Shown one piece after another: positions 95 through 13,836 of a DNA stretch of 64,000 nucleotides; position 1 is the first letter of the stretch; each line of letters begins with the position of its first letter. Where the stretch lies: positions 1 to 64,000 of the IMG/VR virus record IMGVR_UViG_3300020183_000039; one strand, given 5' to 3'. The DNA comes from a virus. The position numbers and the translations under genes are program-made. The notes beneath the pieces were generated by a model. It had not been told where the DNA came from. It saw nothing but the letters and a program-made list of their open reading frames with translations, and did not search any database.

Positions 95-583
95 TTACTC
101 TGGGAGGCCGGACTTCCCGGCCCTCATACGGTCGCGCACGGTCTTCGGGAGGCCCTGCTCCCAGCCGTGCTCCTTCGCAATGCGGATGATTGCGCGCATC
201 ACCGCGTCCGGGTCCTTGGCGCGGCCCACGGAGGACCAGGCCGCCGACACGTCGCCGGGCGACGCGATCGGGAACGACATGTCCGGGCCGGCGAAACCGC
301 CCTTCATCTTGCCGTCCTGGAGGGCCTTGCGCATGTCGCCGGACCACTCGCGGTGGTTGACACCGTAGGCCTCCTCCTGGTAGTTGACCCGGTTCTGGCG
401 GGACTGCTCCATCCGGGCGCGCTTGCGGCCCATGATCTCGCGCATCACGTCGTCGCCGACGACGTAGTTGTCGCGGTCCTTGGGGATGAGGGCCTCGACC
501 CTCTCGCGGCGCTCCTTGTTCTTCTTGAGCAGGTCGCCGACGGGGATCACCTGCCCCACCAGCGTGTCAGTTAGGTTCATCAT
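95..583 (-). CDS. Putative head-associated protein with a DUF6582-like domain
   Basis: C-terminal SFPIASPGDVSAAWSSVGRAKDPDAVMRAIIRIAKEHG resembles a small domain found in phage head-morphogenesis proteins. Confidence 0.55.
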   Translation of the reverse strand: MMNLTDTLVGQVIPVGDLLKKNKERRERVEALIPKDRDNYVVGDDVMREIMGRKRARMEQSRQNRVNYQEEAYGVNHREWSGDMRKALQDGKMKGGFAGPDMSFPIASPGDVSAAWSSVGRAKDPDAVMRAIIRIAKEHGWEQGLPKTVRDRMRAGKSGLPE

Positions 584-1343
584 CAGAGGGGTCCTCCTCC
601 TCGGTTTCGTCTTCGGTTACGTCGGGCTCGGTTTCCTCCTCTTCGCCCTGGGTTTCCTCGGGCGCGTAGTCCTCGTCCTCCTCCTCCTCCTCCTCCTCTT
701 CCTCGCCGTCTTCGGTCAGCGCCGCCAGCTCGGCCTTGAGCTCGGCGATCCTGGCCGCGATGTCGTCGGCGTCGGGCTCGGGCTCCGGCTCGCCGTCGCC
801 ATCGGGTTCCTCGCTTTCGTCCTCTTCTTCCTCGTCGTCCGCGGGGCCGAGCAGCTCGTCGAGCATCGCGTCGATCTCCTCGTCGGTCGTGTCCTCGTCG
901 ATGCCCTCGAGCATCCGCTGGACCAGCGCGTCAAACTCCGGGTCGGCGTCGTCGTCCCCGTCATCGCCGGGGTCGGCTTCCCCCTCGCCGTCGATCTCGG
1001 CGAGCACCTCGTCGATCATGGCGTCGAGCTCCTCGTCGGACATGTCCGACAGCTCGAGTTCGTCGTCGTCGGCCGGGAGGTTGCCCTCGCTGTCGCGGAG
1101 CGCGGCCAGCAGGTCCTGCTGCTTCTGCTCGACGTCCTGCCTCTCGCCGCGCCCGTCGGGGTACTGCCAGAGGCCGGTCTTGTCGAGCCACGCGGACCGC
1201 ACCGGTGCGGTCTCGACGCCGAGCGTGTCGGAGCCGACCTTGACGCCCTGCTCCTCCGTCTCCTCGGCCTTCTGCAGCTGGGCGGCGTAGGCCTGCTGGA
1301 GCTGCTCGTAGGCCTCCTGGGAGAAGCTTCCGAATCCGGACAT
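567..1343 (-). CDS. Very acidic low-complexity protein with a GFGSFSQEA leader
   Basis: 258 aa, D/E-rich with poly-E tracts and repeated E(L/I/F)DA(M/L)xxExL helices; GGGTAA motif 30 nt upstream. Confidence 0.7.
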   Translation of the reverse strand: MSGFGSFSQEAYEQLQQAYAAQLQKAEETEEQGVKVGSDTLGVETAPVRSAWLDKTGLWQYPDGRGERQDVEQKQQDLLAALRDSEGNLPADDDELELSDMSDEELDAMIDEVLAEIDGEGEADPGDDGDDDADPEFDALVQRMLEGIDEDTTDEEIDAMLDELLGPADDEEEEDESEEPDGDGEPEPEPDADDIAARIAELKAELAALTEDGEEEEEEEEEDEDYAPEETQGEEEETEPDVTEDETEEEDPSDDEPN

Positions 1344-1373: not shown

Positions 1374-1997
1374 TTACCCGCCCAGCTCCTTGATCTGGTC
1401 CATGATAGCCTGGCGCCCGGCCTCGTTGACCTGGCCCTCGAGCGCCCTCTCCAGGCCCTCGATCCGGCTGGCGTTGCCGCCGCCGCCGGCGCGGGACCCG
1501 CCGCCGCGCCCCTGGCGTTTTGGCTTCGCGGGCTTAGGCCCTACCTTCTTCTCGCCGGCCACGGAGCCCCACTCGACCATGATCGGCTTGCCACCCTGGA
1601 TCGCCCAGCCGTATGCCTTACCGTCGATCACGACCTTCTTGTTGTTGGTCGGGTCGGAGCCCTGCGACTTGGCAGCCTTCTCGAGCTTCTCCTCCATGGG
1701 GGACTTGGGCTGCTCCTTCGGCTTCGGCTGCTGGCCTGCGGCCGCCGGCTGCCCGGGCTGCTGCGCCTGGGGCTGCGACGGCGCCGCGCCCTGCTGGGCG
1801 GGCTGTGCGGCCGGGGCCTCCCCGATCTTGCGGCAGACGCCGAAGGTCATCTTCTCCCCGGGCCCGCACTCGGCGAAGTCGCTCTGCGCCCACTCCTTCT
1901 CGACCATCGCCTCGAGGTAGCGGATGATCGCGTCCGGCCTATAGCCGTTCGACTCCAGGTAGTCGACGACGCGCTGCTCTGGTGCTCTGTCTGTCAT
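1374..1997 (-). CDS. Array member with a divergent paired-Cys leader, unknown C-terminal domain
   Basis: DFAECGPGEKMTFGVCRKIG followed by a Q/A/P-rich linker. Confidence 0.7.
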   Translation of the reverse strand: MTDRAPEQRVVDYLESNGYRPDAIIRYLEAMVEKEWAQSDFAECGPGEKMTFGVCRKIGEAPAAQPAQQGAAPSQPQAQQPGQPAAAGQQPKPKEQPKSPMEEKLEKAAKSQGSDPTNNKKVVIDGKAYGWAIQGGKPIMVEWGSVAGEKKVGPKPAKPKRQGRGGGSRAGGGGNASRIEGLERALEGQVNEAGRQAIMDQIKELGG

Positions 1998-2149
1998 AGG
2001 TAGGCTGCCGCCAAAAATTCGTCGTCGGATACCTTGCCGCGCTCTGCGAGCTGCTCGGCTAGTGTGAGGAGCCGCTCGGCCTCCGCCTCGTCGCCCTTGA
2101 ACAGGGCGGCCTTGCGCTTGGTCATCAGCTCCACGTACTTGCTGGCCAT
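1994..2149 (-). CDS. Small helical partner protein of kinase effector 1 (candidate inhibitor/immunity protein); not in the ORF track
   Basis: Hand-translated 51 aa MASKYVELMTKRKAALFKGDEAEAERLLTLAEQLAERGKVSDDEFLAAAYL; stop overlaps the next ATG (ATGA); paralogous to 5892..6044. Confidence 0.75.
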   Translation of the reverse strand: MASKYVELMTKRKAALFKGDEAEAERLLTLAEQLAERGKVSDDEFLAAAYL

Positions 2150-2179
2150 GGTGTGTGTGGTGTCGGTGCTCTTCGTGGT

Positions 2180-2207
2180 ATTATGCGGGCTAGACGCCGT
2201 CGTACAG
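2180..2207 (-). promoter_or_regulatory. Candidate early-type promoter in front of the small partner gene
   Basis: CTGTAC-N16-CATAAT, the same 16-nt spacing as the GTTTAC-N16-TATAAT promoters of the early region. Confidence 0.4.
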
Positions 2208-4550
2208 CATCTCGACGTACGCTTTGGCGGCCGTCTCCGACATGCCGTCGAGGACCCGGTCGATGTGCTCCGGCTTGTTCCGGATGCCCATGCCGCGCAT
2301 GCGGTTGGTGTCGATGTCGAGCTCCTCGAGCGCGCGGTTGACCCTCTCCTGGTTGCGGCGGAAGCGGTAGTAGGCCGGGGCCTCGCCGCCGCTCGCCTTG
2401 TAGCGGCCGATGAACCGCTCGGACTGCCAGTCGCCCTGGTTCGTGCCGAAGGCCTCCATGAGGGCGGCCTTGTAGCTGGGCTGCGCCAGGCCGAAGTCGA
2501 TCGCCTGCATGCGGCCGGTCGCCTTGTCGTAGAAGACGTTGTTGCCGTGCATGTCGTTGTGGGCGACGCCGGCCAGGTGGATGTCGCGGCGGGTCCGGAT
2601 GTACTCCTCGAGGACCTTGTTCTTCTCGGCGGCCGAGCGGGGGTTGTACTGGCCGACCGGGACGCCCTTGGCCTCGCCGATGCCGAGGTAGCCCTGGCCC
2701 TCCTTCACGTGGCCGCCATAGCCGGCGCCGACAACGCGCATGTTCGGACTGACGACTGCCCCGTGGAACTCGGGGACGCGGCCGGTGCTCTGGAGCTTCT
2801 GCCACACCTCGGCCTCGTGCTCTCCGATCTTGCCCTGCTTGATGACGCCGGGCGGCGGGCCGTCGGTGCGGTAGGCAGCGCCGAACGCTCCTTTGGCCAG
2901 CAGCCGATTGTTGGTCTGGCCGTAGGTAGCGATCGGATCGTAGTCTTTTACCGCCCGGTCGAGCTTCCAGCCGGCCTTCACGGCTGTGGCGGTCGTCATA
3001 CCAGCAGTGACCTTCACGGGGCCGGCGGGTGTCACCCCGCGGCCGCCGAGCTCCTCCTCGATCTTCCGGCGCTGGGCCGCGCCGAGGTCCCCGCGGCGGA
3101 GCACCGCCTGCAGCTTGTCGGTCGGCTGAGCGAGGAACTTCTGGTTGATTTGCTTTGGCTTGGCCGAGGCTATCTCGGGCTGGGCGGCGAGCTTTGCATT
3201 CTTCTCCCGTAGCTTCTGACCAAGCTCGCGCCGGGCCTCCCTGCCAGCCGACCCCGGCTGCGCCGCGCGCTTCATCAGGACGGCGGTGCTGGCGTCCTTC
3301 GCCCCCGCCTTGACTGGCGCGACGCCGGCCTCGATGTCCATGCGCTTGCGGATCAGGCCCTTCTCGAGGCTGTCGAGGAACGCCTTCTGGTCCGGCTTCT
3401 GGTACGCCGGCTCGTTGCGCCTGCGTCTGATTGCCTCAATCTGCCTGTTGACATCCTCGATGGCCGCCTTGCGCGCCTGCGCGTCGCGCGGCTTCGCGGC
3501 CGGTTTGGGCTCGGCGCCCCTGCCGCCCTGCTCGCGCCGTTTCAGCTCGGCCTCGATGGCCTTCCGCTGGTAGGCGTAGAGCTTGCGGTTGTCCAGGTAC
3601 TCCTGCAGCTTCTGCGTGGTCTCCTTCTTCAGGAACCGCTTGTTGACCTGCATCGAGGGCTTTTCCTGGGCCGCCTTCGCGGGCTTCTTGGTCTCCTTGA
3701 CCGGCGCGGCTGCCTCACCCTTGCGGCGCGCCATCTGCTCGCCCCTGGCCTCGCGATCCTTCCTGAAGCGGGACATGTCCTCGGCCCGTACCCTATCGAA
3801 GGCCTCCTGGGCCCGCTTGATCTGGTCCGGGTCGCGGCCGAGTTTGGCGCGCTCCAGCGCTTTGCGGGCGGCGTCGTAGCGCGGGCCCGCCAGGTAGCGC
3901 TCCTGCTCGAGCCCGCGGACGCGGCGGTCCAGCGTTTCGTTGCCCATGCCGCGGACGCGCCCGACCTCGCTGGCCCTCGCGGCCAGGGCCTCCTCGATCT
4001 TCTTCCTCTGGCCCGCGTTGAGCTGCCGCTCGTCGAGGATCTTCTGGAGTTCGCGCGCGTTGCGAACGTTGAGGAACTTCTCGTTGACGACGCCGGTGAG
4101 CTTCTCCTTCTTGGGCTCGGCGCCCTTGATGGCCTTTGCCGCCTGCTCCGGGGTCTTCACGCCCTTGACGTCGGCGGGCCTCTGCGTCACGCCCATCCGC
4201 TCGTTCAGCCTGCGGACCAGCGACTGTACAGCCTCTGGGCCCTTGACCATCTTGAGACCCTTCTCCTCGCGGAGGCGTTTGTTCTCGTCGAGGATCGACT
4301 CGACCCTCATGCCGGCCGCGCGGCCCTTGTTGTACACGTCGCCCTGGCGGTCGCCCGGGCGGTAGGAGATGGGCGTGCCCTTGCGGCACTGGCCCTGCGT
4401 CCCGTAGACGCTGCCGTCGGGCCGCTGGCAGACCTGCGCGAAGTCGAAGTCCCCGGCGCCGCCGCCCTCCGTGAACTCGGCGAGCAGCGCGTCGCGCACC
4501 TCGCTCTCGAGCGACGGGTCGAAGCCGCCGTGCTGCGTTAGCTTGTCCAT
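2190..4550 (-). CDS. Array effector 1: conserved leader, basic repeats and a C-terminal protein-kinase-like domain
   Basis: Leader DFAQVCQRPDGSVYGTQGQCRKG; kinase motifs LAKGAFGAAY, VIKQG, HEAEV, HNDMHGNN, IDFGLA. Confidence 0.85.
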   Translation of the reverse strand: MDKLTQHGGFDPSLESEVRDALLAEFTEGGGAGDFDFAQVCQRPDGSVYGTQGQCRKGTPISYRPGDRQGDVYNKGRAAGMRVESILDENKRLREEKGLKMVKGPEAVQSLVRRLNERMGVTQRPADVKGVKTPEQAAKAIKGAEPKKEKLTGVVNEKFLNVRNARELQKILDERQLNAGQRKKIEEALAARASEVGRVRGMGNETLDRRVRGLEQERYLAGPRYDAARKALERAKLGRDPDQIKRAQEAFDRVRAEDMSRFRKDREARGEQMARRKGEAAAPVKETKKPAKAAQEKPSMQVNKRFLKKETTQKLQEYLDNRKLYAYQRKAIEAELKRREQGGRGAEPKPAAKPRDAQARKAAIEDVNRQIEAIRRRRNEPAYQKPDQKAFLDSLEKGLIRKRMDIEAGVAPVKAGAKDASTAVLMKRAAQPGSAGREARRELGQKLREKNAKLAAQPEIASAKPKQINQKFLAQPTDKLQAVLRRGDLGAAQRRKIEEELGGRGVTPAGPVKVTAGMTTATAVKAGWKLDRAVKDYDPIATYGQTNNRLLAKGAFGAAYRTDGPPPGVIKQGKIGEHEAEVWQKLQSTGRVPEFHGAVVSPNMRVVGAGYGGHVKEGQGYLGIGEAKGVPVGQYNPRSAAEKNKVLEEYIRTRRDIHLAGVAHNDMHGNNVFYDKATGRMQAIDFGLAQPSYKAALMEAFGTNQGDWQSERFIGRYKASGGEAPAYYRFRRNQERVNRALEELDIDTNRMRGMGIRNKPEHIDRVLDGMSETAAKAYVEMLYDGV

Positions 4551-4551
4551 G

Positions 4552-5892
4552 TCAGCCCTCCCCTCCGGCCGCGTTCAGGATCGCCACCCGCTCCGCGGCC
4601 GTCAGGCCGCTGGTGGGGCCGAAGCGGGCCTCCACGTCCTTCAGGATCTCCGACCGCGGGCGCGAGTCGTTCTTGGAGCTCGCGATCGCCTGGCCGATGC
4701 TCTTGAGGTCGGACTCCTCGAGCTTGAAGCCCCAGCGCATGCGGACGAGCGCCCTGCCCTCGCCCACGGTCGGGTACGCCGTCTGGCCCCTCGACCCGCC
4801 CTTCTTGACCCACGCGGCCCCGGCGCTGCCCTGGACCGACGCCTGCAGCATGTCCTTGATCTCGCCCATCTTCGCCGTGGCCAGCATGTCGCCGATCTGC
4901 TTCTGCGTCATCAGCGGCATGTTCTCCTTGAGCGCCTGGCGGCGCTGGGCCTTCTCGGCCGCCGCCGCGCTGCCGGCGCCCTTGACCCTGGCCACCTCGT
5001 CCGCTGACATCGCGGCGTTCTCCCTGAGCTTCTTGAGCAGCTGCGTGTTGAGGTAGTCCTCCGCCGCCTTACCCGTGAGGCCCTTGGCGCGGACGCCGGC
5101 CTCGATGTTACCCTTCGTCTGGTTCGTGGCGGTGCTCACCCAGATCCAGTTGTTGGGCGAGTCCTTGCCGCCCATCGAGCCCGCCAGCCTGTGGTCGAGC
5201 TGCATGCCTGTGCTCCAGGGCAGGAACTTGCCGTTGACGTCCTTGAAGTCGTTGTCCATGAGAGACTTGAGGACGGCCTTGGCGCGGGCGTCCTTGGGCT
5301 GGTCGCCCCACGCCTCGGCGCGCATGCCGGCCTCGGGGGTCCCCTTGCCGTCGAGCTTGCCGCTCACCTTGCCCCAGGTCTTCTCGGCCTTCATCCTGTC
5401 GATGACAAAATTGACCTCGGCCTCAGAGGTGTCGTGGGGCGGCCTGTAGGTCCGGTCGCCGCCGCTCTCGTAGAACTTGACGTACTTCGCGGCCTCGCCC
5501 GGGTCCTGCAGGGTCACGCCGGCGGCCTGCCTGCCGCCCGAGACCGTCGCGGATAGCGTGTCGACGGTGTTGGATGCCCTCACGGCCTGCTCGACGCTGA
5601 GCTTCTTCTTGACGCCCTCGGCCACGCGGCTGAGCTGCTTGTCGTCGAGCTCCTCGAGCTTCTTCCTGGTCTCGCCGGAGGCGCCGAGGCTGTCGATCAG
5701 CCTCTTGCGCTCGCCGGCATCGAGCCTGCACTCCTTAGCGGACGAGATGAAGCTCTCGCCGCACGGGATACCTGTCCCGGCCTTGGCGAACTCGAGCGAG
5801 CCGGCCGGCTCGGAGTAGCGGAGCGCGAGTACCCCCCTGGCTCTCGTCTCGAGGCTCGGGTTCCAGCCGCCGTGCTGCTTCAGGCGCGCCAT
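4552..5892 (-). CDS. Array effector 2: variant leader and an HNH endonuclease domain
   Basis: N-terminus LKQHGGWNPSLE matches effector 1 (LTQHGGFDPSLE), then RYSE and EFAK-CGESFISSAKECR; HNH motif QLDHRLAGSMGGKDSPNNWIWVSTATNQTKGN. Confidence 0.8.
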   Translation of the reverse strand: MARLKQHGGWNPSLETRARGVLALRYSEPAGSLEFAKAGTGIPCGESFISSAKECRLDAGERKRLIDSLGASGETRKKLEELDDKQLSRVAEGVKKKLSVEQAVRASNTVDTLSATVSGGRQAAGVTLQDPGEAAKYVKFYESGGDRTYRPPHDTSEAEVNFVIDRMKAEKTWGKVSGKLDGKGTPEAGMRAEAWGDQPKDARAKAVLKSLMDNDFKDVNGKFLPWSTGMQLDHRLAGSMGGKDSPNNWIWVSTATNQTKGNIEAGVRAKGLTGKAAEDYLNTQLLKKLRENAAMSADEVARVKGAGSAAAAEKAQRRQALKENMPLMTQKQIGDMLATAKMGEIKDMLQASVQGSAGAAWVKKGGSRGQTAYPTVGEGRALVRMRWGFKLEESDLKSIGQAIASSKNDSRPRSEILKDVEARFGPTSGLTAAERVAILNAAGGEG

Positions 5893-6044
5893 CAGATGTA
5901 GGCCCCCGCGATCATCTCGTCTTCGGACACTTTCTTTGCTTTTACCATCTTGCGGGCCTTCTCGAGCAGCGCCCTGGCGTCGTCGTCGCGCCCGGCGCGG
6001 CGAGCGATCTTGTACTGCTCCATCACCTTGACGTAGTTGCTCAT
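5892..6044 (-). CDS. Small helical partner protein of kinase effector 3 (candidate inhibitor/immunity protein); not in the ORF track
   Basis: Hand-translated 50 aa MSNYVKVMEQYKIARRAGRDDDARALLEKARKMVKAKKVSEDEMIAGAYI; fills the gap between the flanking genes; paralogous to 1994..2149. Confidence 0.75.
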   Translation of the reverse strand: MSNYVKVMEQYKIARRAGRDDDARALLEKARKMVKAKKVSEDEMIAGAYI

Positions 6045-6045
6045 G

Positions 6046-7254
6046 TCACACTCCCTCGTAGAGGCTGTCGATGTACTTTTCGGCCTGCGAGCGCGAGATG
6101 CCCTGGCGGTCGAGCGGCTGGGCCGGGTCGAAGCCGTCGGCCTTCATCTGCTTGGCGACGGCCTCCTGATTCTGCTCGAACCTGGCGAGCATCGGGCCGG
6201 CGTTGGACCTGGGCCCGCTGCCGGACCTCGGGCCGGCCAGGTCCGACAGCATGCTGCCGCTCTTGAAGTCCCCGCTCGAGCCGAGGGTGAGGCCCTCCTG
6301 CAGCGCCGACACCGGCGACGTCTTGGCCATACCGAAGTCGATCAGGCCGCCCTTGCCCGTCGCGCTGTCGTAGAAGAAGTTGCCGTCGTGCTGGTCGCCG
6401 TGGCTCACGCCGCGCTTGTGCATGTCGCGGTTCAGCCGGACCAGCTCGTCCGCCGCCTTGGCTGACGCCTTGCTCGGGCCGTCATACAGCAGGTCGGTAT
6501 CCATGATCGCCCTGCCCCTGGCGAGTTCCATCTCGATGAGGTTGCCCTCGTTGCCCTTGATCTTGGGGACGCCGTCCACGCCCTCGAGCTTCTTCTGGGC
6601 CGCGACCTCCTCGGGCCCGAGCTCGCCCTTCTTGATGACGGTGCCGTCCTCCGTGCGGCGGACCTGCGCGAAGCCGCCCTCGCCCAGGGTCTTGGCGCTC
6701 TCGTACCGGCCGGCCAGCGACCTAGGGTCGCCCCCTCCCGGCTTGACGGCCACGCCCTTCAGGGCCGCCTCCTCGTAGATCTCCTTGGGGCTGTAGTCGA
6801 GGCCGCCGAGCGTCCCGTCGGCCTTCTTCCAGAAGTATTTCCCGTCCTTCTTGACGTAGGTATCGTCGCCGACCTGTACCTCCGAGCCGTCCGGCGCGCC
6901 CTTGAGGCCGTCCATGGACAGTTCGATCTTGGCGGGCTTCGCCGGCTCCTCCTTCTTGGGCGCCTCCTCCTTGGGGGCGGCTGGCGCCGCGGCCGGCTTG
7001 GCGTTGATGGCCCGGAGCTCCTTGATGGCGTCCTCCTTGCTCTTCCGCCCCTCGACCACCTCGAGAGCTATCTGGGCCTTCTTGTTGCCCTTGGCGGCGG
7101 CGTCCCTGAGGATCTTCATCTCGCGCGGGCCGACCTCCTTACCCTTCCTGCACTGGCCGCCGGTCCCGTAGTACGAGCCGTCCGCACGCTGGCACCGCGC
7201 GAAGTCGAGCACCGCGAGGGCGTCCTCCGAAAAGATTAGGTGGGTGCGCTTCAT
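6046..7254 (-). CDS. Array effector 3: conserved leader and a C-terminal protein-kinase-like domain
   Basis: Leader IFSEDALAVLDFARCQRADGSYYGTGGQCRKGK; kinase motifs LGEGGFAQV, VIKKG, EEVAA, HGDQHDGN, IDFGMA. Confidence 0.85.
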   Translation of the reverse strand: MKRTHLIFSEDALAVLDFARCQRADGSYYGTGGQCRKGKEVGPREMKILRDAAAKGNKKAQIALEVVEGRKSKEDAIKELRAINAKPAAAPAAPKEEAPKKEEPAKPAKIELSMDGLKGAPDGSEVQVGDDTYVKKDGKYFWKKADGTLGGLDYSPKEIYEEAALKGVAVKPGGGDPRSLAGRYESAKTLGEGGFAQVRRTEDGTVIKKGELGPEEVAAQKKLEGVDGVPKIKGNEGNLIEMELARGRAIMDTDLLYDGPSKASAKAADELVRLNRDMHKRGVSHGDQHDGNFFYDSATGKGGLIDFGMAKTSPVSALQEGLTLGSSGDFKSGSMLSDLAGPRSGSGPRSNAGPMLARFEQNQEAVAKQMKADGFDPAQPLDRQGISRSQAEKYIDSLYEGV

Positions 7255-7670
7255 TTTTCATCCGCACGGTCCATCTGCGCCTTGACCTTCTCGGCCCAGG
7301 CCCTGCCCGGGTCGCCGCCCCAGAGCAGCCAGGAGATGAGGCTGTTGGACGGGGGGCTCATCGTGTGGTTCTTCTTGTACGCGGAGTGGCGGGCGAAAAA
7401 GCTCACCATGCGCCCTATCGTAGCGGGGGACAGGCTCTGGCGGTTCTTCAGCGACGCGGCGCGCTGGACGCCGGAGCCGACGCCCTCCTCGGCCGCCTGC
7501 TTCGTGCTGAAGCCGCCGCGGCCGGTCTTCTTGCGCAGCTCGAGCCCGCGGGCCGCCGCGTCCGCGACGGACTGGGGCGGGCGGAAGTCGATGTCCCCGT
7601 ACTTCTCGGCCCACTCCGGGTTCTCGGCCCACTCGAGGGCCTCTGGGTTGATGCGTCCGAAGTTGTTCAT
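7251..7670 (-). CDS. Small head-associated-type protein, copy 2 (paralogue of 10176..10592)
   Basis: Likely start is MNNFGRI at 7670, not 8471; PPQSVADAAARGLELR...RMVSFFARH...SWLLWGGDPG.AWA resembles a module seen in phage head-morphogenesis proteins. Confidence 0.75.
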   Translation of the reverse strand: MNNFGRINPEALEWAENPEWAEKYGDIDFRPPQSVADAAARGLELRKKTGRGGFSTKQAAEEGVGSGVQRAASLKNRQSLSPATIGRMVSFFARHSAYKKNHTMSPPSNSLISWLLWGGDPGRAWAEKVKAQMDRADEK

Positions 7671-8578
7671 CAGCTCACGTAGTACTTGCCCTGGCCCTTG
7701 GTGCCGGTCAGCTCGTCGAGCCGCCCGCCGACCTGCTCGGCCTTCTTCCTGAGGCGCTTCATGGCCTCGTCGATCTGGTTCACGCGGCCGATCTGCAGGC
7801 GCATCTGGGCGACGTTGCGCTCGTTGGAGAGCCTCTTCATCGCGGCGCGGGCGCGGCCGATGAACTTCTCGCCGCGGGCGACCTCGCGCTCGCCGGCCTT
7901 GGCGTCGGCCATTGCGCCGCCCTTGGCCGCCCCTGGCTTGTTTGCGAACATCCGGGGATACCTGGCCGCGATGCGTGCCTTGATCTTGGCGTCCGCCCTG
8001 GCGGCTCGCTCGCGGGCCACGTCGTCGAACGTCCGGCCGGTGCGCCGGGCTTCGGCCTCGACCTTCGCGTTGCGTTGCAGGCCCTGGAGTTCGTTCCGTA
8101 GATCTTTCAGCTTCTTCTTGTCGCCGGACGCCTTGGCGGCGGCGATTCGCTCTTTGAGCACGGACATCCGGTCGGCCTTGGCGTCGGCCATTGCCCCGCC
8201 GCCGGAAAGATTGACGCCCCTGGCCTTGAGCTGGCCTTCGACGGCCGCGAGGGCTTGCATCAGGTTGTTGGTCTTGCCCAGATCGCCCGACTTCGCGGCG
8301 TCGCCGATCTGCTTGGTGAGGGAGGCGCGGAGCTTCATCGCCTGCTCGTTGCTCACCCCGCCGGACCTCGTCGCCTTGGCCCTCGTCTGCTCGGCCGGCT
8401 TGTCGCCCGCCTCCTTGCCCGTGCGGCACTGGCCGCTGGTGCCGTAGAACGAACCATCTGCTCGCTGGCAACGGGCAAAGTCGTACGACTCGCCCTGCTC
8501 CTCGGAGAAACGAAGGTGGAGGTCGTCGATGGCTTTGGCGGCGGACTCGCTGAAGTCGCCGAACTGCTTGAGTTTCAT
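7670..8578 (-). CDS. Array member: conserved leader and a basic helical C-terminus
   Basis: FGDFSES...RFSEE..YDFARCQRADGSFYGTSGQCRTGK; K/R/A-rich, internal GGAMADAKA duplicated. Confidence 0.8.
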   Translation of the reverse strand: MKLKQFGDFSESAAKAIDDLHLRFSEEQGESYDFARCQRADGSFYGTSGQCRTGKEAGDKPAEQTRAKATRSGGVSNEQAMKLRASLTKQIGDAAKSGDLGKTNNLMQALAAVEGQLKARGVNLSGGGAMADAKADRMSVLKERIAAAKASGDKKKLKDLRNELQGLQRNAKVEAEARRTGRTFDDVARERAARADAKIKARIAARYPRMFANKPGAAKGGAMADAKAGEREVARGEKFIGRARAAMKRLSNERNVAQMRLQIGRVNQIDEAMKRLRKKAEQVGGRLDELTGTKGQGKYYVS

Positions 8579-8605
8579 CAGTCTATTTTAATACAGGGAC
8601 TGCGT

Positions 8606-8803
8606 TCAGTCTTTGTTGTCGGCCGCTTCCATCTGGGCCTTGGCTCGAGCTGATTTAGCCAACTCTGCTGAATGCTTTCTTAACTCGTTGTTTCTCTGCA
8701 TGTTGCCCATCGCATAGGCGATATTGGATGCTCTGATGAAGTCTCCGTTCTCGAGGAGTTTCTTTACAGTCGGAAGCTTTTCAAATTCTTCTATAGTAAT
8801 CAT
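8606..8803 (-). CDS. Small partner protein of effector 4 (candidate immunity protein)
   Basis: 65 aa, start overlaps the stop of 8800..10179; shares the low GC of that gene's 3' domain. Confidence 0.6.
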   Translation of the reverse strand: MITIEEFEKLPTVKKLLENGDFIRASNIAYAMGNMQRNNELRKHSAELAKSARAKAQMEAADNKD

Positions 8804-10179
8804 TCTTCAAAGGGATCGGGATAGGTGGAGAGCTGAGAGGCAAAGTCTCCAAAGTCTTCTCTCTTAGACATGACTTCAAAGATTCTAGCGGCTTGACGGG
8901 CCGAACGGTCCCAGTTCCTATCTTCTTTAGAACCGGGTCGTATCTCTCCGCTTTCGATGAAAGCATCTTTCATAAACTTCGCATCTTCGAGCAAAGAAGA
9001 GCGGTCAGCAATCCGTTTGCCTCCGCCGCCACTTACATGTTGGTTCATATAGTTGACGAGGATCTCTTCCATGGGTGTAATCCCCTTAGTCCCAGACGCC
9101 TTGGCAAAGTCTTCTGATGATCTCCCGAGGTAGCTGTGAATAGCAGAGTGGTAGCGATCGTGCGATGCTGTAACATCATCAAGTCCGTTTCTCTTCTGCC
9201 AATCTTTCGTGTATGAATCAAGCTTTTCTTGGCTTTTCCAGGCATCCTTGCTTGGGGCTAATTTGCCTTTCTCGTATTCATTACTTACTAAGTACTTGCC
9301 AAACCTTTCTTCTCTTGAAGTCCCCAGAGATTTTACTCTGTCTTCTGCCTCGAGTTTTCTTTGTCTTGCATCTGCAAGAATACTCCCCCTATCCTCCCCA
9401 GCAGCCATGCGTCTCCCGTCTTCTTTCATAGCCGCATCGTAGGCAGCTTTGGCCTCTTTGAGCTCCTTGAGCGCCTTAGCAGTAGCTTTAGCGTCTGGAG
9501 AGTCTCTCAAAGCCTTAAGTGCGTCGTACCTTTCGTACTCTTTAAGGGTGTAGGTACCGTCCATGACCTTGCTTTTAAGAGCTTCGATCTGGGTTGAGAC
9601 TTTGGCCTTTTGAGCATCGTTCAACGGCTTTCCAGGCGGGGCGTCAAGAGCCCCATTTTCTAAGGCCTTCTTATCTTCAGCCAAGACTTTTAACGCTGCT
9701 TTAGCGTCGTCTAAGTCTAAACCTAGCCGATCATACTTACTGTCCCATTCGCTAGTGGTCTCAAGTTGCTTTTTGAGACCACTAATCTTTTCTTGGGTTT
9801 CTTTCTCTTCTCGGCTTAGGTTTTCTAGGGCCTTCTTTGTCTCTTCGCTCGGCCCCTTCTTTTCGGGCTCAAGAGGCTTCGCATCCTCAATCTTCTGTGC
9901 CTTGGCCTGCGGTTTCGGCTCAGCAAGAGGCTTAGGAGCAGCAGGCCCCTTGGGGCTGTCGGGATCCTCCACTTTGGACAGTTTTTGGAGTGCAACTTTG
10001 GCTTTAGCGTCTCCCGCTTGTGCCTTAGCCTGCAACGCTTGGATCTCCTTGGGGCCCACTTCTTTACCCTTACGGCATTGCCCTGAAGTTCCGTAGTAAC
10101 TTTCGTCTGGACGCTGGCAACGAACAAAGTCAAGGGTTTCCAGTGCTTGCTCTGAGAATGTTGAGTAGGTCCTTTTCAT
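8800..10179 (-). CDS. Array effector 4: conserved leader, coiled coil and a C-terminal HDxxH domain
   Basis: TFSEQALETLDFVRCQRPDESYYGTSGQCRKGKEVGP; C-terminal SHDRYHSAIHSY...PMEEILV; low GC. Confidence 0.8.
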   Translation of the reverse strand: MKRTYSTFSEQALETLDFVRCQRPDESYYGTSGQCRKGKEVGPKEIQALQAKAQAGDAKAKVALQKLSKVEDPDSPKGPAAPKPLAEPKPQAKAQKIEDAKPLEPEKKGPSEETKKALENLSREEKETQEKISGLKKQLETTSEWDSKYDRLGLDLDDAKAALKVLAEDKKALENGALDAPPGKPLNDAQKAKVSTQIEALKSKVMDGTYTLKEYERYDALKALRDSPDAKATAKALKELKEAKAAYDAAMKEDGRRMAAGEDRGSILADARQRKLEAEDRVKSLGTSREERFGKYLVSNEYEKGKLAPSKDAWKSQEKLDSYTKDWQKRNGLDDVTASHDRYHSAIHSYLGRSSEDFAKASGTKGITPMEEILVNYMNQHVSGGGGKRIADRSSLLEDAKFMKDAFIESGEIRPGSKEDRNWDRSARQAARIFEVMSKREDFGDFASQLSTYPDPFEE

Positions 10180-10592
10180 CGCTCGTCAGCTTTCTCCATC
10201 TGTGCTTTGACTCGCTTCGCCCAGGCCTCACCGGGATCCCCACCCCAGAGCAACCATGAGATGAGTGACGCGGAAGGCGGGTTGGTCGTGTGATTCTTTT
10301 TATAGGCCGAGTGGCGGGCGAAGAAGCTGACCATGCGGCCGATGGTATTTGGGTTAAGCGCTTGTCGATTCTTCAGCGAGGCTGCTCGAGCCACGCCGCT
10401 GCCGATCCCCTGCTTGCCCGCCTCCTCCGTGGAGAGCCCTCCACGCTTATGCTTCTTACGAAGCTCCAGGCCACGAGCGGCGGCATCCGCCACGGACTGA
10501 GGAGGGCGAAAGTCGATATGGCCGTAGCGTTCAGCCCACTCGGGGTTTTCTGCCCAGGCCAAAGCCTCTTCCGAGATGCCACCGCCGAACAT
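10176..10592 (-). CDS. Small head-associated-type protein, copy 1
   Basis: Highly similar to 7251..7670 (WAENPEWAE...RMVSFFARHSAYKKNHT...LLWGGDPG). Confidence 0.8.
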   Translation of the reverse strand: MFGGGISEEALAWAENPEWAERYGHIDFRPPQSVADAAARGLELRKKHKRGGLSTEEAGKQGIGSGVARAASLKNRQALNPNTIGRMVSFFARHSAYKKNHTTNPPSASLISWLLWGGDPGEAWAKRVKAQMEKADER

Positions 10593-10610
10593 CAGCCTCG
10601 CTCCTTAGCG

Positions 10611-11153
10611 CTACTTGGAACCACTTTTAGCCGCATTCTTATCATTCACGATAAGAGCCCGGAGGATCTCAGAGGATCTCCCGCGGTTATAGTCAACTGT
10701 GCCGCGCTTCCTCTCGTTATCTTGGTACTCTTTCAGCAGTCCTTTGACTTGCTGGAAGCCCGGCTTCTCGCCAAGTTGTTCCGACCGAGCAAGGAGACGC
10801 TTCCTGGCTTCGTAGAAGGCCTTGGTTCCCTTCTCCGTATCAAAGGCACGCCTATTCATGATGGCGCGTGCGTCGGACGCCACCTGCTTTTTCAGATCTT
10901 GGCCGCCGCCGGAAGGGGCCGCAGCGGCCTTAGGAGCACTAGGTTGCTTGGGCTTTTCCTGCTTAGCCCCGGCGTCCTTGCCCATGCGGCAGCTACCGGA
11001 TGTCCCGTAGAAAGACCCGTCGGCTCGTTGGCAGCGAGCGAAGTCGTAAGCTTCTGCAAAAGCCTGCTGGTCCTCGGGGTTTTCCGAGTATTTTAGAGCA
11101 ACCAGGGCCCTAGCTTTTGCTAGGGCCTCTTCGGTGAAATGATCTTTGCGCAT
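10611..11153 (-). CDS. First array member: conserved leader and a short basic domain
   Basis: Probable start MRKDHFTEE at 11153; AFAEAYDFARCQRADGSFYGTSGSCRMGK. Confidence 0.75.
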   Translation of the reverse strand: MRKDHFTEEALAKARALVALKYSENPEDQQAFAEAYDFARCQRADGSFYGTSGSCRMGKDAGAKQEKPKQPSAPKAAAAPSGGGQDLKKQVASDARAIMNRRAFDTEKGTKAFYEARKRLLARSEQLGEKPGFQQVKGLLKEYQDNERKRGTVDYNRGRSSEILRALIVNDKNAAKSGSK

Positions 11154-11184: not shown

Positions 11185-11192
11185 TTTTACCC
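11185..11192 (-). promoter_or_regulatory. Putative late promoter motif GGGTAAAA heading the effector array
   Basis: Immediately after a terminator; the GGGTAA core lies 33 nt before the ATG; the motif recurs before many structural genes. Confidence 0.6.
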
Positions 11193-11240: not shown

Positions 11241-12044
11241 TTAGTCGTCGTATCGGTCTAGAATGTGAGCGATCACAGAGTTTCGTACGATGTCCTCTTT
11301 TTCGAACTGCACGATCCCAACGTCCCGCATGTCCCGAAGCCGGTAGACTGCGTCAAGAAGGCCATTGTCCTTGCGGAACACCTCTAGATCAGACTGCTTC
11401 GTGTCACCCACGATCGCCATCTTGGAATCCTGACCCAAGCGAGTCAGGCACGTCTTCACGTGCGACGGGAGCATGTTCTGCGCCTCGTCGACCACAATGA
11501 AACAGTCGTTGAAGGAGCGCCCGCGGACGTCCTCCAGAAGTACGGGCTCGACGAGCCCTTTGTTGATCAGGTATTCGGCGGCGCCTTGGTTGCGCATCAT
11601 CACCGGTAGATTGTCGAGAACTGGCCCGATTAACGGGCGGACTTTCTCGTTGAAGTCACCAGGGAGAGCACCACGGCCTCTCTGGAACTCCACTCCAACA
11701 TCGCTGCGGATGTAGATGACTTTCTCGACCTCACCCCTGGTGACTTGGGTCATTCCGAACCAGAGGGCGAGGAGGGTCTTGCCAGTTCCTGCGTGGCCAT
11801 GAGCCAGCGTGACTGCATTGCGCTCCATCTGGTTCCAGAACTCGTCCTGCCTCCAGGTCATAGCCTTGAAGGGGAGGAGGTCCATGCCTCTTTCACGGTG
11901 GACGACGTCTTCGACTTGACGCCGTACTTTGCGCTTCTCTCGAGCGGTAGGCATTAGATTGCGGATAGCGAAGGTTTGAGTTTCGACGAGGACAAACTCT
12001 AGGTGATCACCGGACTCACCTCCTTCTTCTTTGCCACCATACAT
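11241..12044 (-). CDS. phoH: PhoH-family ATPase
   Basis: GHAGTGKT Walker A, RGRSF, IVVDEAQN, GDTKQSDL, DIVRN motifs; the start may be MPTAREK further downstream. Confidence 0.92.
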   Translation of the reverse strand: MYGGKEEGGESGDHLEFVLVETQTFAIRNLMPTAREKRKVRRQVEDVVHRERGMDLLPFKAMTWRQDEFWNQMERNAVTLAHGHAGTGKTLLALWFGMTQVTRGEVEKVIYIRSDVGVEFQRGRGALPGDFNEKVRPLIGPVLDNLPVMMRNQGAAEYLINKGLVEPVLLEDVRGRSFNDCFIVVDEAQNMLPSHVKTCLTRLGQDSKMAIVGDTKQSDLEVFRKDNGLLDAVYRLRDMRDVGIVQFEKEDIVRNSVIAHILDRYDD

Positions 12045-12126: not shown

Positions 12127-13836
12127 TTAGTCGATGCCGACGTCGTACTTCAGGTCTGACCGGCCTCGGTAGCCTCTCTGCCCAGTAAGCCCGTCACCGA
12201 AGGCCCAGGACGTCTCGTTTGGCGATAGGATCTGCCGACCCTTGCCGCTTTTAAGCTCCGTGAAGTCCCTCATCAAAGCCGCACGGTCCTCCGCTCGTCC
12301 GATGCCCGACTTCATCATGTCCATGGCGTTCGCGTGGCCCGAAGCGTCCAGATGGAAAGAATAGTACGTCAAACCCCAAACCACTGCGTCCGTCTTGTCA
12401 TCGTGAGGGACGAACGGGAATGCCGTAAGCTCCTTGACAAAATCGTCTACCCAGGCTCCCTCGACAAAATGCACTCGCTTAGCTTCGAACAGCGGGCACA
12501 CCGTCTGAAGCCGCACCGTCTTGGACTTCAGTGGCTTGAACTTGTGGATCTGGATCTTGCTCTCCCGTTCCAGCATCTGGATCAGGGACTGGCCAGACGC
12601 GGCCTGCTCGATGGTCATGAACCGAGCGTTGTAGTACTTCTGGGTCTGCTGGACCATCGCGAGAAGGTCAGGGAATCCCCAGCGCCCGTGGACCAGCTCC
12701 CGGATATAGATGTTGTCCGGGTCCTTCTTCGAGAACCCTACCACGGCGATGACACTCTCGTCCGCGCTCTGCTTCTCCGAGAACGCCGTGTCGAGCGACA
12801 TGTACGTGATGTCGAACTCCGGGCATTCGTCAGCCGGCTTCACGCTGATCCAGCCAGCCTTGACGATGGAGCCTTCCTGTGCGGCGGGAAGACCTTGGTA
12901 CAGAGCGGCGAACTTTGCGCTGCCCATGATCCTCTTCTGGGAGAGGAGCATCTCTGTCGTGAAGATCGGGTTGGACGGCCAGTGCGACTCTCCATTCTTG
13001 CGCCCGAGCGGATCGATCGCCTCGTTCTCGCAGAGACCTGGCACGTTCACCCAGCGCCACCCCATCGGGTTCTCGACCTCGTCGTAGAGCCCGTCGCCGT
13101 CCATCAGGATCCCGTGAAGATCTTTCTCGTGGAAACGAGTACCGATGAGAAGCTGAGCCCAGCGGTTGGTGCGACGAGTAGACGCTTGTTCACCCCACCA
13201 GTCTTCCAGGCCTTCCAACGCTGCACGCGAATCCGAACCTTTGAGCGGGTCGTCGATCACCATTGCCCCGACACCCGGGCTATCTTCCGCCGGTGTACCG
13301 GCCGTGAAACCGGTCATCACGCCGCCTACTGACGTAGCGAGGATGAAGCCTCCGCCCTTCATGTCGTACTTGGAGTCCGGGTGGAAACCCAGCCAGTTCG
13401 GGAACACCCGAGTGAACTGCTTATGGCGTAGGTACCCGTGGATGCCTCGGAGGAAGCGATTCGAGAGCTGTTGGCCGTACGAAGCGAGGATGTGCTGGGT
13501 TTGCTGGTCTCGCCCTAGCAGCCACGCCACGAACAACTGTGATAGCATCGACTTGCCCGAGCGCGGAGCGCAACTCACGATAAGACGAGAGTAACGCCAG
13601 TCCGCGATGTCCTCGAAGCCCGAGGCGATGATCTCGTGGAACGGCTCGACCTTGAGTTTTCCGTCAAGCATCAGGTCGGCGAACGCCAGAAAGCAAGAGC
13701 GCGCCGCGCGGAATTTGAAGTCCTGCAGCACGCTCTTCGGCGCTTCCATGAGTTCTAGCTCGCGGAGGCCTCTCTTGTAGACGCGCCAGCTCGAATGCTC
13801 CTCGAGCTGTGACGCGTGGGTGATGATCGGTCTCAT
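12127..13836 (-). CDS. terL: Terminase large subunit
   Basis: APRSGKS Walker A, MVIDDPLKG Walker B, GTRFHEKDL, SLDTAF and HDDKTDA nuclease motifs. Confidence 0.93.
   Translation of the reverse strand: MRPIITHASQLEEHSSWRVYKRGLRELELMEAPKSVLQDFKFRAARSCFLAFADLMLDGKLKVEPFHEIIASGFEDIADWRYSRLIVSCAPRSGKSMLSQLFVAWLLGRDQQTQHILASYGQQLSNRFLRGIHGYLRHKQFTRVFPNWLGFHPDSKYDMKGGGFILATSVGGVMTGFTAGTPAEDSPGVGAMVIDDPLKGSDSRAALEGLEDWWGEQASTRRTNRWAQLLIGTRFHEKDLHGILMDGDGLYDEVENPMGWRWVNVPGLCENEAIDPLGRKNGESHWPSNPIFTTEMLLSQKRIMGSAKFAALYQGLPAAQEGSIVKAGWISVKPADECPEFDITYMSLDTAFSEKQSADESVIAVVGFSKKDPDNIYIRELVHGRWGFPDLLAMVQQTQKYYNARFMTIEQAASGQSLIQMLERESKIQIHKFKPLKSKTVRLQTVCPLFEAKRVHFVEGAWVDDFVKELTAFPFVPHDDKTDAVVWGLTYYSFHLDASGHANAMDMMKSGIGRAEDRAALMRDFTELKSGKGRQILSPNETSWAFGDGLTGQRGYRGRSDLKYDVGID

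What the first reader, a model, noticed from the sequence alone, without database searches (positions are those of the whole stretch)
1374..11153. Array of polymorphic effector proteins sharing an N-terminal paired-Cys leader
Seen: five genes (2190, 6046, 7670, 8800, 10611) begin with a short leader ending in DF(A/V)xCQR(P/A)D(G/E)S(Y/F/V)YGTxG(Q/S)CRxG. Two more (4552: EFAK..CGESFISSAKECR; 1374: DFAECGPGEKMTFGVCR) have divergent paired-Cys versions. After a K/A/P-rich linker the C-termini differ: two kinase-like domains, an HNH nuclease, an HDxxH domain and basic helical domains. The array follows terL/phoH and opens with the late-type GGGTAA motif. Known: a conserved N-terminus plus a variable toxic C-terminus plus a small downstream gene is the architecture of polymorphic toxin systems, including phage MuF toxins, and T4 internal proteins use an N-terminal capsid-targeting sequence. 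Inference: the leader is a packaging tag that loads interchangeable enzymes into the capsid for co-injection, for host takeover, anti-defence or phage competition. I do not recognise this leader as a described family.
Basis: partly seen in the sequence, partly recalled or inferred. Interest (0 to 1): 0.92.

Follow-up and report, generated by a model that had tools for sequence, protein, structure and literature searches.

The report
Shared two-cysteine leader on cyanophage accessory enzymes
A freshwater cyanophage carries a row of genes that all begin with the same tiny two-cysteine module but end in different enzymes, and the module probably marks proteins that the phage loads into its particle and delivers with its DNA.

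Summary
Five minus-strand genes after terL/phoH share a near-invariant 25-residue two-Cys module. One more gene (1374-1997) has a conserved short-loop variant. The gene at 4552-5892 carries a degenerate copy of a different, four-Cys module. Pfam, PHROGs and NCBIfam do not know the module, and its strings occur in no searchable paper. A profile finds 975 protein clusters among 1.84 billion. These lie almost only on phage contigs of the S-CBWM1-like cyanomyovirus clade, at 2-10 copies per record. Cargo varies: kinases, ADP-ribosyltransferases, NMNAT-like enzymes, DUF6496 and many basic helical proteins. Some relatives fuse two or three leader-plus-cargo units into one protein. Leader genes share a GGGTAAA(A) box about 30 nt upstream with head, portal and lysis genes. 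Two papers report that the S-CBWM1 NMNAT is in the virion proteome. I show that this NMNAT carries the leader and that two S-CBWM1 kinases carry the four-Cys module; one of the papers reports the kinases in virions too. A virion-address role is therefore the best reading (about 0.55) but is untested. The toxin-immunity analogy is not supported. Caveat: metagenome contigs do not bridge 8391-8434, and depth changes 3.5-5 fold there, so the left 8.4 kb may come from a co-occurring relative.

The parts
11185..11192 (-). GGGTAAAA promoter-like box, 31 nt before the first array gene and just after a hairpin-plus-T-run behind phoH
   Evidence: GGTAAAA occurs 16 times on the coding strand against 1 on the other. 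GGGTAAAA also precedes the starts at 39857 (protease-scaffold), 36778, 34654 and 23878. Upstream sequence read.
10611..11153 (-). leader protein of 180 aa (ATG start); module core at 10986-11033; basic helical cargo with no family
   Evidence: N-terminal type conserved as the first array gene in L002, L003, L004 and L017.
10176..10592 (-). 138-aa protein without leader, phrog_2859-like domain; its stop overlaps the next start (ATGA)
   Evidence: E 1.1e-11; 614 longer proteins carry the domain, fused to Mu-like protease, XkdF-like protease, portal, 2H/LigT, InPase and ART domains.
8800..10179 (-). leader protein of 459 aa; module core at 10072-10119; helical middle part; C-terminal domain with an HDxxH motif and no family
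   Evidence: Its first 65 aa are 63% identical to those of 6046-7254, and nothing is alike beyond them.
8606..8803 (-). 65-aa ORF of unknown function; last gene of the lower-GC3 part
   Evidence: GC3 0.55; no paralogue in the genome.
7670..8578 (-). leader protein of 302 aa; module core at 8423-8470; basic helical cargo; first gene of the high-GC3 part
   Evidence: Its C-terminal part is 93% identical to an L003 gene. The contig and depth break at 8391-8434 lies inside its leader-coding DNA.
7251..7670 (-). second copy of the phrog_2859-like domain protein (about 139 aa; 79% identical to 10176-10592)
   Evidence: 96% identical to the L003 copy.
6046..7254 (-). leader protein of 402 aa; module core at 7147-7194; APH/ABC1/Bud32-like kinase cargo
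5892..6044 (-). 50-aa ORF directly behind the kinase gene; paralogue of 1994-2149
   Evidence: 39% identity, E 1e-9 in the pairwise comparison.
4552..5892 (-). 446-aa protein with a degenerate four-Cys-type module (5725-5793) and HNH-like cargo
   Evidence: (HNH_4 E 0.011). Homologous cargo in L003 and L007, P0011 and P0012 (sequences read); it carries the canonical two-Cys leader in L007, P0011 and P0012 and a variant of it in L003.
2190..4550 (-). leader protein of 786 aa; module core at 4383-4430; long basic repeat region; C-terminal kinase
   Evidence: 82% identical to an L003 gene over residues 296-786.
1994..2149 (-). 51-aa ORF directly behind the second kinase gene
   Evidence: found elsewhere only in the L003 contig.
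1374..1997 (-). 207-aa protein with a conserved C-x10-C variant of the leader (1830-1880)
567..1343 (-). 258-aa hyper-acidic protein (40% Asp+Glu, pI 4.1) that closes the array; preceded by GCGGGTAAGAC
   Evidence: homologues in the same place in L003 and L007.

Best explanation
The array encodes modular accessory proteins of an S-CBWM1-like freshwater cyanomyovirus. Each protein starts with a three-part leader. First comes a short acidic helix. Then comes a nearly invariant 25-residue core, E-x-[YL]-D-F-[AT]-R-C-[QV]-R-P-[DN]-G-[ST]-x-Y-G-T-x-G-x-C-[RK]-K-G, predicted to form a small beta-sheet. Last comes a Lys/Ala/Pro/Glu-rich linker. Behind the leader sits unrelated cargo. I read the leader as an address module. 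It would bring late-made enzymes into the virion so that they enter the host with the DNA, as the capsid-targeting sequence does for the T4 internal proteins. Shown: the family, its conservation, its restriction to one phage clade, the swapping of cargo and of leader type, and the shared promoter-like box. Reported by others: the S-CBWM1 NMNAT and kinases are in virion preparations. Inferred: that the leader causes encapsidation, that the proteins are ejected, and what the two cysteines do (disulfide, shared metal site or contact with a partner).
For: The family is real and large: 975 representative clusters at E<=1e-3 and 683 at E<=1e-10 among 1.84 billion proteins. In 308 distinct instances ten positions are conserved at 98% or more. 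The module is N-terminal in most proteins: the first Cys lies within 60 residues of the start in 195 of 225. Cargo is interchangeable. Pfam on 128 members found CTP_transf_like in 12, ADPrib_exo_Tox in 9, DUF6496 in 7, ART in 6, Pkinase in 5 and APH in 5. The 321 cargo segments fall into 78-176 clusters. Genes 8800-10179 and 6046-7254 are 63% identical for 65 residues and unrelated after that. The family is phage-borne and clade-restricted. It gave 25 IMG/VR loci, only 4 loci in 185,579 species genomes, and only S-CBWM1 among 50,697 phage records. Where head genes are seen, terL is 57-79% and portal 55% identical to the window's. There are 2-10 copies per record. Late-type control: GGGTAAA(A) lies about 30 nt upstream of the first array gene and of head genes in the window. 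In S-CBWM1 it precedes both leader genes, portal, protease, a virion structural protein and the endolysin, but not psbA or sHSP. It precedes 14 of 35 leader genes in the loci against 35 of 295 background ORFs. Virion evidence: the S-CBWM1 NMNAT carries the canonical leader and is reported in the virion proteome (PMC10665884 and PMC9602691, passages read). The APH and ChoK kinases reported in those virions (PMC10665884) carry the four-Cys module. A neighbouring gene carries a domain that elsewhere is fused to prohead proteases and portals.
Against: Nothing tests whether the leader is needed or sufficient for packaging. The virion data are second-hand, because the primary paper (Xu et al. 2018) is not held. 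Both citing papers warn that abundant proteins can co-purify through CsCl. I could not learn whether gp165, the other S-CBWM1 leader protein, was detected; it is annotated only as hypothetical. The third S-CBWM1 kinase, probably the 'Rio2' kinase reported in virions, has no Cys module, so virion association does not require one. In 48 of 228 listed proteins the module recurs internally, which a simple N-terminal propeptide model does not need. The head protease here is Mu-like (phrog_976, no T4 gp21-type hit), and no cleavage site is known. The upstream aromatic-x-Glu (278 of 308) and downstream [AGPS][KR]E (153 of 308) are weak signals in Glu-rich sequence. The model of the leader is only moderately confident (pLDDT 75) and matches no solved fold.
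Confidence: 0.55

Rival explanations
1. The module acts inside the infected cell and not in the particle. It would be a common docking or switching device that brings different enzymes to one shared target such as nucleic acid, RNA polymerase or the ribosome, or a redox- or metal-sensitive switch.
For: The core is flanked by conserved basic residues (R-1, R2, R/K15, K16) and followed by a Lys-rich tail. A Cys pair this conserved suggests metal or redox chemistry. The S-CBWM1 NMNAT gene lies among non-structural genes. In larger relatives the copies are dispersed far from head genes.
Against: The leader genes share the box found before head, portal and lysis genes and not the signals before psbA and sHSP. 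The leader-bearing NMNAT is reported in virions. Cargo such as an NMNAT-like enzyme or an HNH-like nuclease has no evident need for one common macromolecular target.
Confidence: 0.22
2. The module is processing punctuation. It would mark the boundaries at which a protease cuts polyproteins into single effectors, and the single-gene arrays would be split versions of such polyproteins.
For: 48 of 228 listed proteins carry 2 or 3 modules, each in front of a separate cargo, for example P0012, P0013 and P0005. The four-Cys module recurs in proteins of 1000-1900 aa with LPD1, kinase plus ART, or Zeta toxin. Glu is common on both sides of the core. The scaffold-like end of the 691-aa protease protein holds a similar LEFSEGE stretch.
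Against: Most members are single-cargo proteins with the module at the very N-terminus, where no cut is needed to separate domains. The fusions may be trivial, because the array genes abut or overlap by 1-4 nt. There are no cleavage data. This reading is compatible with the best explanation and is not exclusive of it.
Confidence: 0.1
3. A polymorphic toxin-immunity system for competition between phages or bacteria: conserved N-terminus, variable toxin, small immunity gene downstream.
For: The N-terminus is conserved and the C-terminus varies. Paralogous 50- and 51-aa genes lie directly behind both kinases.
Against: The small genes were found only behind these two kinases and in one other contig. 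Most leader genes have no such partner. No secretion, MuF or PT-HINT domain is present in the array proteins. Cargo includes NMNAT-like enzymes and non-enzymatic basic proteins. Only 4 loci were found in 185,579 cellular genomes.
Confidence: 0.03

Closest known systems
Capsid-targeting sequence (CTS) of the T4 internal proteins IPI, IPII, IPIII (and Alt)
   Same: A short conserved N-terminal element stands in front of otherwise unrelated proteins. There are several copies per genome, some outside the structural clusters. Cargo includes an ADP-ribosyltransferase. The proteins are basic and Lys-rich. The described role is loading into the scaffolding core and delivery with the DNA (PMC3012670 and PMC9026906, passages read).
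   Different: The T4 CTS is about 10 residues, has no cysteine pair, and is removed by the gp21 protease after L/I-x-E. Here the conserved core is 25 residues with two invariant Cys, sits behind a helix of variable length, can be internal, and the phage has a Mu-type portal and a Mu-like protease-scaffold. Neither packaging nor cleavage is shown.
Polyvalent proteins of phages and conjugative elements (Iyer et al. 2017, PMC5512222)
   Same: Effector domains (kinase, ART, 2H, NTase) are encoded next to the terminase/portal late genes and are predicted to be packaged. Cassette-like small ORFs lie nearby. Some relatives here are true multi-module proteins, and the four-Cys module occurs with LPD1.
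   Different: In the window each protein has one cargo. The unifying feature is a small Cys module that the paper does not mention ('cysteine' occurs 0 times). That paper notes a paucity of polyvalent proteins in cyanobacteria.
MuF-type polymorphic toxins of prophages
   Same: A conserved head-associated N-terminus with a variable enzymatic C-terminus.
   Different: No MuF domain is present in any array protein. The phage's MuF-like candidate (36854-37777) is a separate gene, named only from a C-terminal Cys/His motif that I recall. There is no general immunity gene.
Virion-associated kinases and NMNAT-like proteins of cyanophages (S-CBWM1, S-CRM01, S-TIM5, S-SCSM1, S-CREM2)
   Same: The same classes of enzyme are reported in virion proteomes (PMC10665884 and PMC9602691, passages read). 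The S-CBWM1 proteins are members of the families described here.
   Different: The passages I read treat them as single observations and mention no shared N-terminal module. No close homologue of the S-CBWM1 NMNAT was found in other phage records.

Membership tests
T4-type CTS internal proteins | Unrelated mature proteins behind one conserved N-terminal element | tested here: met
T4-type CTS internal proteins | The element is removed by a gp21-type prohead protease after L/I-x-E | tested here: inconclusive
   The protease here is phrog_976/Mu-like, with no Pfam hit. Glu-containing motifs flank the core, but there are no cleavage data.
T4-type CTS internal proteins | The proteins are present inside the virion and the element is sufficient for loading | not testable with these tools
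   Only second-hand reports exist that the leader-bearing S-CBWM1 NMNAT is in the virion proteome.
T4-type CTS internal proteins | Sequence likeness to the T4 CTS | not tested
   No T4 sequence was fetched. Length and composition clearly differ from the description in PMC9026906.
MuF polymorphic toxins | N-terminal MuF (Phage_Mu_F) domain | tested here: not met
   No such Pfam hit in any of the 10 array proteins at E<=0.1.
Polymorphic toxin systems | Cognate immunity gene directly downstream of each toxin | tested here: not met
   Small ORFs lie only behind the two kinases and 8800-10179. The 50/51-aa family was found in only one other contig.
Polymorphic toxin systems | N-terminal secretion or trafficking domain of a known export system | tested here: not met
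   no known domain in the leaders.
Polyvalent proteins (Iyer 2017) | Two to fifteen effector domains in one polypeptide | tested here: not met
   The window has one cargo per protein. Among relatives, 48 of 228 listed have 2 or more modules.
Polyvalent proteins (Iyer 2017) | Encoded with the terminase/portal late genes and sharing the effector repertoire | tested here: met
   The array lies directly after terL/phoH in the window and in 10 of 25 loci (the rows of L008 were cut from the output). Kinase and ART cargo. LPD1 occurs with the four-Cys module.
Protein-kinase-like fold (APH/ABC1/Bud32) | Family profile above cut-off; catalytic H-x-D-x4-N and DFG motifs | tested here: met
   6046-7254: APH 27.3 against 23.2 and ABC1 26.3 against 22.9. 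2190-4550 is below the cut-offs but homologous (E 4e-21). HGDQHDGN/IDFG and HNDMHGNN/IDFG are read.
HNH endonuclease | HNH profile above cut-off | tested here: inconclusive
   4552-5892: HNH_4 16.2 bits against 22. Its homologues give no hit. It shows no significant likeness to the HNH_4-positive P0397 (E 0.081).

The most novel reading that the evidence does not exclude
The two-Cys module, with its four-Cys counterpart, is a new sequence-recognisable capsid-loading and ejection tag, the first outside the T4 group. A simple profile would then list the injected effectors of a whole clade of freshwater and estuarine cyanophages: ADP-ribosyltransferases, kinases, NAD-synthesis enzymes and nucleases. 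The cysteine pair could act as a lock that is oxidised or metal-bound in the particle and released in the reducing host cytoplasm. The conserved leader DNA could serve as the crossover point for exchanging cargo between co-infecting phages.
Probability: 0.35. Interest if true: 0.85.

Novelty: new variant of a known kind. Interest (0 to 1): 0.68.

Why it matters
If the module is a loading tag, injected phage proteins could be predicted from sequence alone in uncultured cyanophages. At present only T4-like and MuF-type cases allow this. It would explain why kinases and NMNAT-like enzymes keep turning up in cyanophage virion proteomes. It would point to host takeover by ADP-ribosylation, phosphorylation and NAD supply at the moment of entry. 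It would also give a handle for loading foreign proteins into cyanophage capsids. A cultured member, S-CBWM1 on Synechococcus CBW1002, makes the idea directly testable. Even if the packaging role is wrong, a family of about 1000 clusters with ten near-invariant positions and no annotation deserves a name and a structure.

Tried and rejected
The fold of the leader was predicted with AlphaFold2 on 46 sequences: helix 2-11, strands 22-26, 32-36 and 43-45, pLDDT 74.9. Foldseek against the PDB gave no match at E<=0.001, so no fold name can be given.

PDB sequence searches with 4552-5892, 8800-10179 and 10176-10592 gave nothing meaningful. The ESM Atlas gave no usable hit for the 180-aa protein. NCBIfam has no family for the leader.

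I considered the 138-aa neighbour as an obligatory partner or adaptor of the leader and rejected the idea. It is absent from the complete S-CBWM1 genome and was not found in three partial records that do hold leader genes.

I considered an N-terminal aromatic-x-Glu signal shared with the structural proteins. Only 8 of 182 minus-strand ORFs have it, and 5 of those are the array genes themselves, so nothing links it to known head proteins.

Cargo clustering by single linkage over-merged through low-complexity linkers. The stricter count is given beside it.

The homology of 4552-5892 to the HNH_4-positive family behind phoH was not confirmed.

A test of leader dimerisation with Zn could not be run, and a fold of the 138-aa domain could not be made (see below).

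Literature searches that found nothing: five motif strings (0 papers) and 'Aokuangvirus' (0 papers). PMC10854222 held nothing on kinases or proteomes. The S-CBWM1 virion protein list in Xu et al. 2018 and its supplements could decide whether gp165 is in the particle.

Full report
WHAT THE WINDOW IS. The window is bases 1-64000 of a single 86,569-bp virus record. Its genes run on the minus strand. They include a DNA polymerase, a 1305-aa sheath-like protein, a Mu-type portal, a protease-scaffold protein, a lambda-E-type capsid protein, baseplate and fibre proteins, and TerL. The nearest cultured phage is Synechococcus phage S-CBWM1 (Aokuangvirus), with 51% TerL identity. Twenty-four lake or freshwater metagenome runs hold part of the region.

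THE OBSERVATION. Behind terL (12127-13836) and phoH (11241-12044) lie 14 tightly packed minus-strand ORFs. Five of them carry the strict pattern C[QE]R.D.S.[YF]G..G.CR. These are the only five hits in six frames of the whole record. The leader-coding DNA copies are 69-80% alike, and the window holds no long exact repeat at the leaders. The likeness is therefore kept at the protein level and is not a fresh duplication.

Gene 1374-1997 has a shorter C-x10-C version that four orthologues conserve. The 'divergent' leader of 4552-5892 is something else. It aligns without gaps to a four-Cys module, C-x2-G-x2-CG-x2-C-[IV]-x5-C, with the first and third Cys replaced.

One kinase assignment is above the Pfam cut-offs. 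The other follows by homology. The HNH assignment is below the cut-off. The HDxxH motif has no family.

THE FAMILY. Pfam, PHROGs and NCBIfam do not cover the leader. Five motif strings occur in no searchable paper. A pattern scan of IMG/VR gave 25 loci holding 46 distinct leaders including the window's.

A profile of these leaders found 975 representative clusters at E<=1e-3 and 683 at E<=1e-10 among 1.84 billion proteins. A word-indexed search found 876 proteins among the 8000 candidates scored.

From 308 distinct instances the core reads E(-7), [YL], D, F, [AT], R, C, [QV], R, P, [DN], G, [ST], x, Y, G, T, x, G, x, C, [RK], K, G. Ten positions are conserved at 98-100%. A K/A/E/P-rich stretch follows.

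AlphaFold2 gives a helix followed by a three-stranded mini-sheet at pLDDT 75. No solved fold matches it.

WHERE THE FAMILY OCCURS. Among 50,697 phage records only S-CBWM1 holds it. That phage has two copies: gp165, just before the sheath gene, and the annotated NMNAT. Among 185,579 species genomes only four loci were found; three are MAG contigs and one is a weak match.

Other records hold 4-10 copies each. In 10 of the 25 loci the leader genes lie directly behind or between terL and phoH, as in the window (the rows of L008 were cut from the output). In two larger records with the same TerL (62-63% identical) and portal (55%) most copies lie far from terL, apart from one copy about 1.6 kb past a TerL-like match in G002.

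MODULARITY. Of 128 members of 230 aa or more, Pfam named CTP_transf_like in 12, ADPrib_exo_Tox in 9, DUF6496 in 7, ART in 6, Pkinase in 5 and APH in 5. Five further families were each named once, and most members matched nothing. The 321 cargo segments form 78 clusters by single linkage and 176 by strict criteria.

In the window, 8800-10179 and 6046-7254 share 63% identity over 65 residues and nothing after that. The HNH-like cargo carries a canonical leader in L007, P0011 and P0012, a long-loop variant in L003, and the degenerate four-Cys type in the window. Leaders and cargo are therefore exchanged in both directions.

Of 228 listed proteins, 48 hold two or three leader-plus-cargo units in one chain. 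This list is biased towards high scores, so the true share is smaller.

The four-Cys module behaves in the same way. It heads both S-CBWM1 kinases next to gp165. It heads a roughly 600-aa HNH_4-positive protein behind phoH in four loci, and five ORFs in L024. It also recurs in proteins of 1000-1900 aa with LPD1, kinase plus ART, or Zeta toxin.

TIMING AND VIRION LINKS. GGTAAAA occurs 16 times on the coding strand and once on the other. GGGTAAAA lies 16-58 nt before the protease-scaffold gene, three other structural-region starts and the first array gene.

In S-CBWM1 the same box lies 29-34 nt before gp165, the NMNAT, the APH kinase, gp168, portal, protease, a virion structural protein and the endolysin. 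It is absent before psbA and sHSP. A longer upstream box is shared by the NMNAT, gp168 and the structural protein.

In the loci, 14 of 35 leader genes have the box within 60 nt, against 35 of 295 background ORFs. Most of those without it are internal array genes.

Two papers state that the S-CBWM1 NMNAT was detected in the virion proteome, and one adds the APH, ChoK and Rio2 kinases (passages read in PMC10665884 and PMC9602691). Both papers caution about co-purification. The primary paper is not held.

The third S-CBWM1 kinase has no Cys module.

The 138-aa neighbour gene is present twice in the window. Its domain is fused in 614 longer proteins to Mu-like and XkdF-like prohead proteases, portals, 2H/LigT, InPase, ART and other enzymes. 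It is absent from S-CBWM1, so it is context and not a required partner.

INTERPRETATION. The best reading is an address module for virion loading, analogous to the T4 capsid-targeting sequence, which is described as the only conserved part of a diverse set of internal proteins (PMC3012670, PMC9026906). I put this at about 0.55.

The rivals are an intracellular docking or switch module (0.22), processing punctuation of polyproteins (0.10, and compatible with loading) and a toxin-immunity system (0.03). The last is weakened because the 50/51-aa genes are confined to two kinases and one other contig.

The system is not a member of the T4 CTS, MuF-toxin or polymorphic-toxin families by their defining features. 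It overlaps in repertoire and context with the polyvalent proteins of Iyer et al. That paper does not mention any cysteine module and notes few such proteins in cyanobacteria.

ASSEMBLY CAVEAT. GC3 is 0.49-0.68 for genes 10611-8606 and 0.83-0.96 for genes from 7670 down to 95. The left part is closest to the L003 contig (96%, 93%, 82%, 89%, 75% and 82% identity for six genes). The right part is closest to L004.

Contigs from three runs cross the GC step at 8579-8605 without a difference, so the mosaic exists in nature. No contig in four runs crosses 8391-8434, which lies inside the leader-coding part of 7670-8578. Depth is 23, 30, 88 and 10.6 to the left against 6.1, 6.2, 17.1 and about 3 to the right. 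Loose ends cluster at the leader-coding stretches near 7179-7213 and 8425-8434.

Either a more abundant relative shares the left module, or the record is joined from two phages at the conserved leader. Arrays of 6-10 leader genes in other single contigs show that the phenomenon does not depend on this join.

TOOLS NOT AVAILABLE.

Noticed in passing
window 8391-8605: A GC3 step (about 0.55 to about 0.9) lies at 8579-8605, and a 3.5-5 fold depth step with contig breaks lies at 8391-8434 in four lake metagenome runs. The left 8.4 kb resembles contig L003 and the right part resembles L004. This is either a natural mosaic or a chimeric join at the conserved leader-coding DNA.
   Followed up: partly
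window 10176-10592 and 7251-7670: A strongly conserved domain of about 120 residues (phrog_2859-like, no Pfam family) is present twice here. In 614 longer proteins it is fused to prohead proteases, portals, 2H/LigT, InPase, ART, PolyA_pol-type NTase and SOD. It looks like a widespread head-delivered domain of unknown function.
   Followed up: partly
L015 2893-3000 and 3811-3915; L024 (five ORFs); L011, L016, L019, L022 behind phoH; window 5725-5793: A second small module, C-x2-G-x2-CG-x2-C-[IV]-x5-C, is used like the two-Cys leader, at N-termini and between domains of kinases, ARTs, Zeta toxin, and HNH and LPD1 proteins. It gave 76 hits in the word-indexed search.
   Followed up: partly
L001 8911-8955 (S-CBWM1): The reading frame of the ChoK-like kinase extends upstream of its annotated start and there encodes the four-Cys module. 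The annotated start is probably too far downstream.
   Followed up: no
window 567-1343: A hyper-acidic 258-aa protein (40% Asp+Glu, pI 4.1) closes the array, is conserved in L003 and L007, and has its own GGGTAAG box. It could be a charge partner for the basic leader proteins or a DNA mimic.
   Followed up: no
window 5892-6044 and 1994-2149: Paralogous 50- and 51-aa genes (39% identical) lie directly behind each kinase gene. They were found elsewhere only in the L003 contig.
   Followed up: partly
S-CBWM1: L001 17650-17737 and 23354-23443; L029 8604-8693: An extended upstream box, TGTAGATGTGAAAGATT..CACTGTCCC.T.GGTAAAA, is shared by gp168, a virion structural protein and the leader-bearing NMNAT. 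It is a candidate late promoter with an upstream element.
   Followed up: partly
window 36854-37777 and 37782-39857: The 307-aa protein ends in CxxC...CQCHDRCRC, which I recall as typical of MuF/SPP1 gp7-type head proteins, though Pfam gave no hit. The 691-aa protein is a Mu-like protease, a long charged low-complexity region and a coiled-coil scaffold-like end in one chain.
   Followed up: no
window 2190-2210 and 6046-6066; P0012 C-terminus: Both kinases and a metagenomic homologue end in the same LY[DE]GV tail.
   Followed up: no
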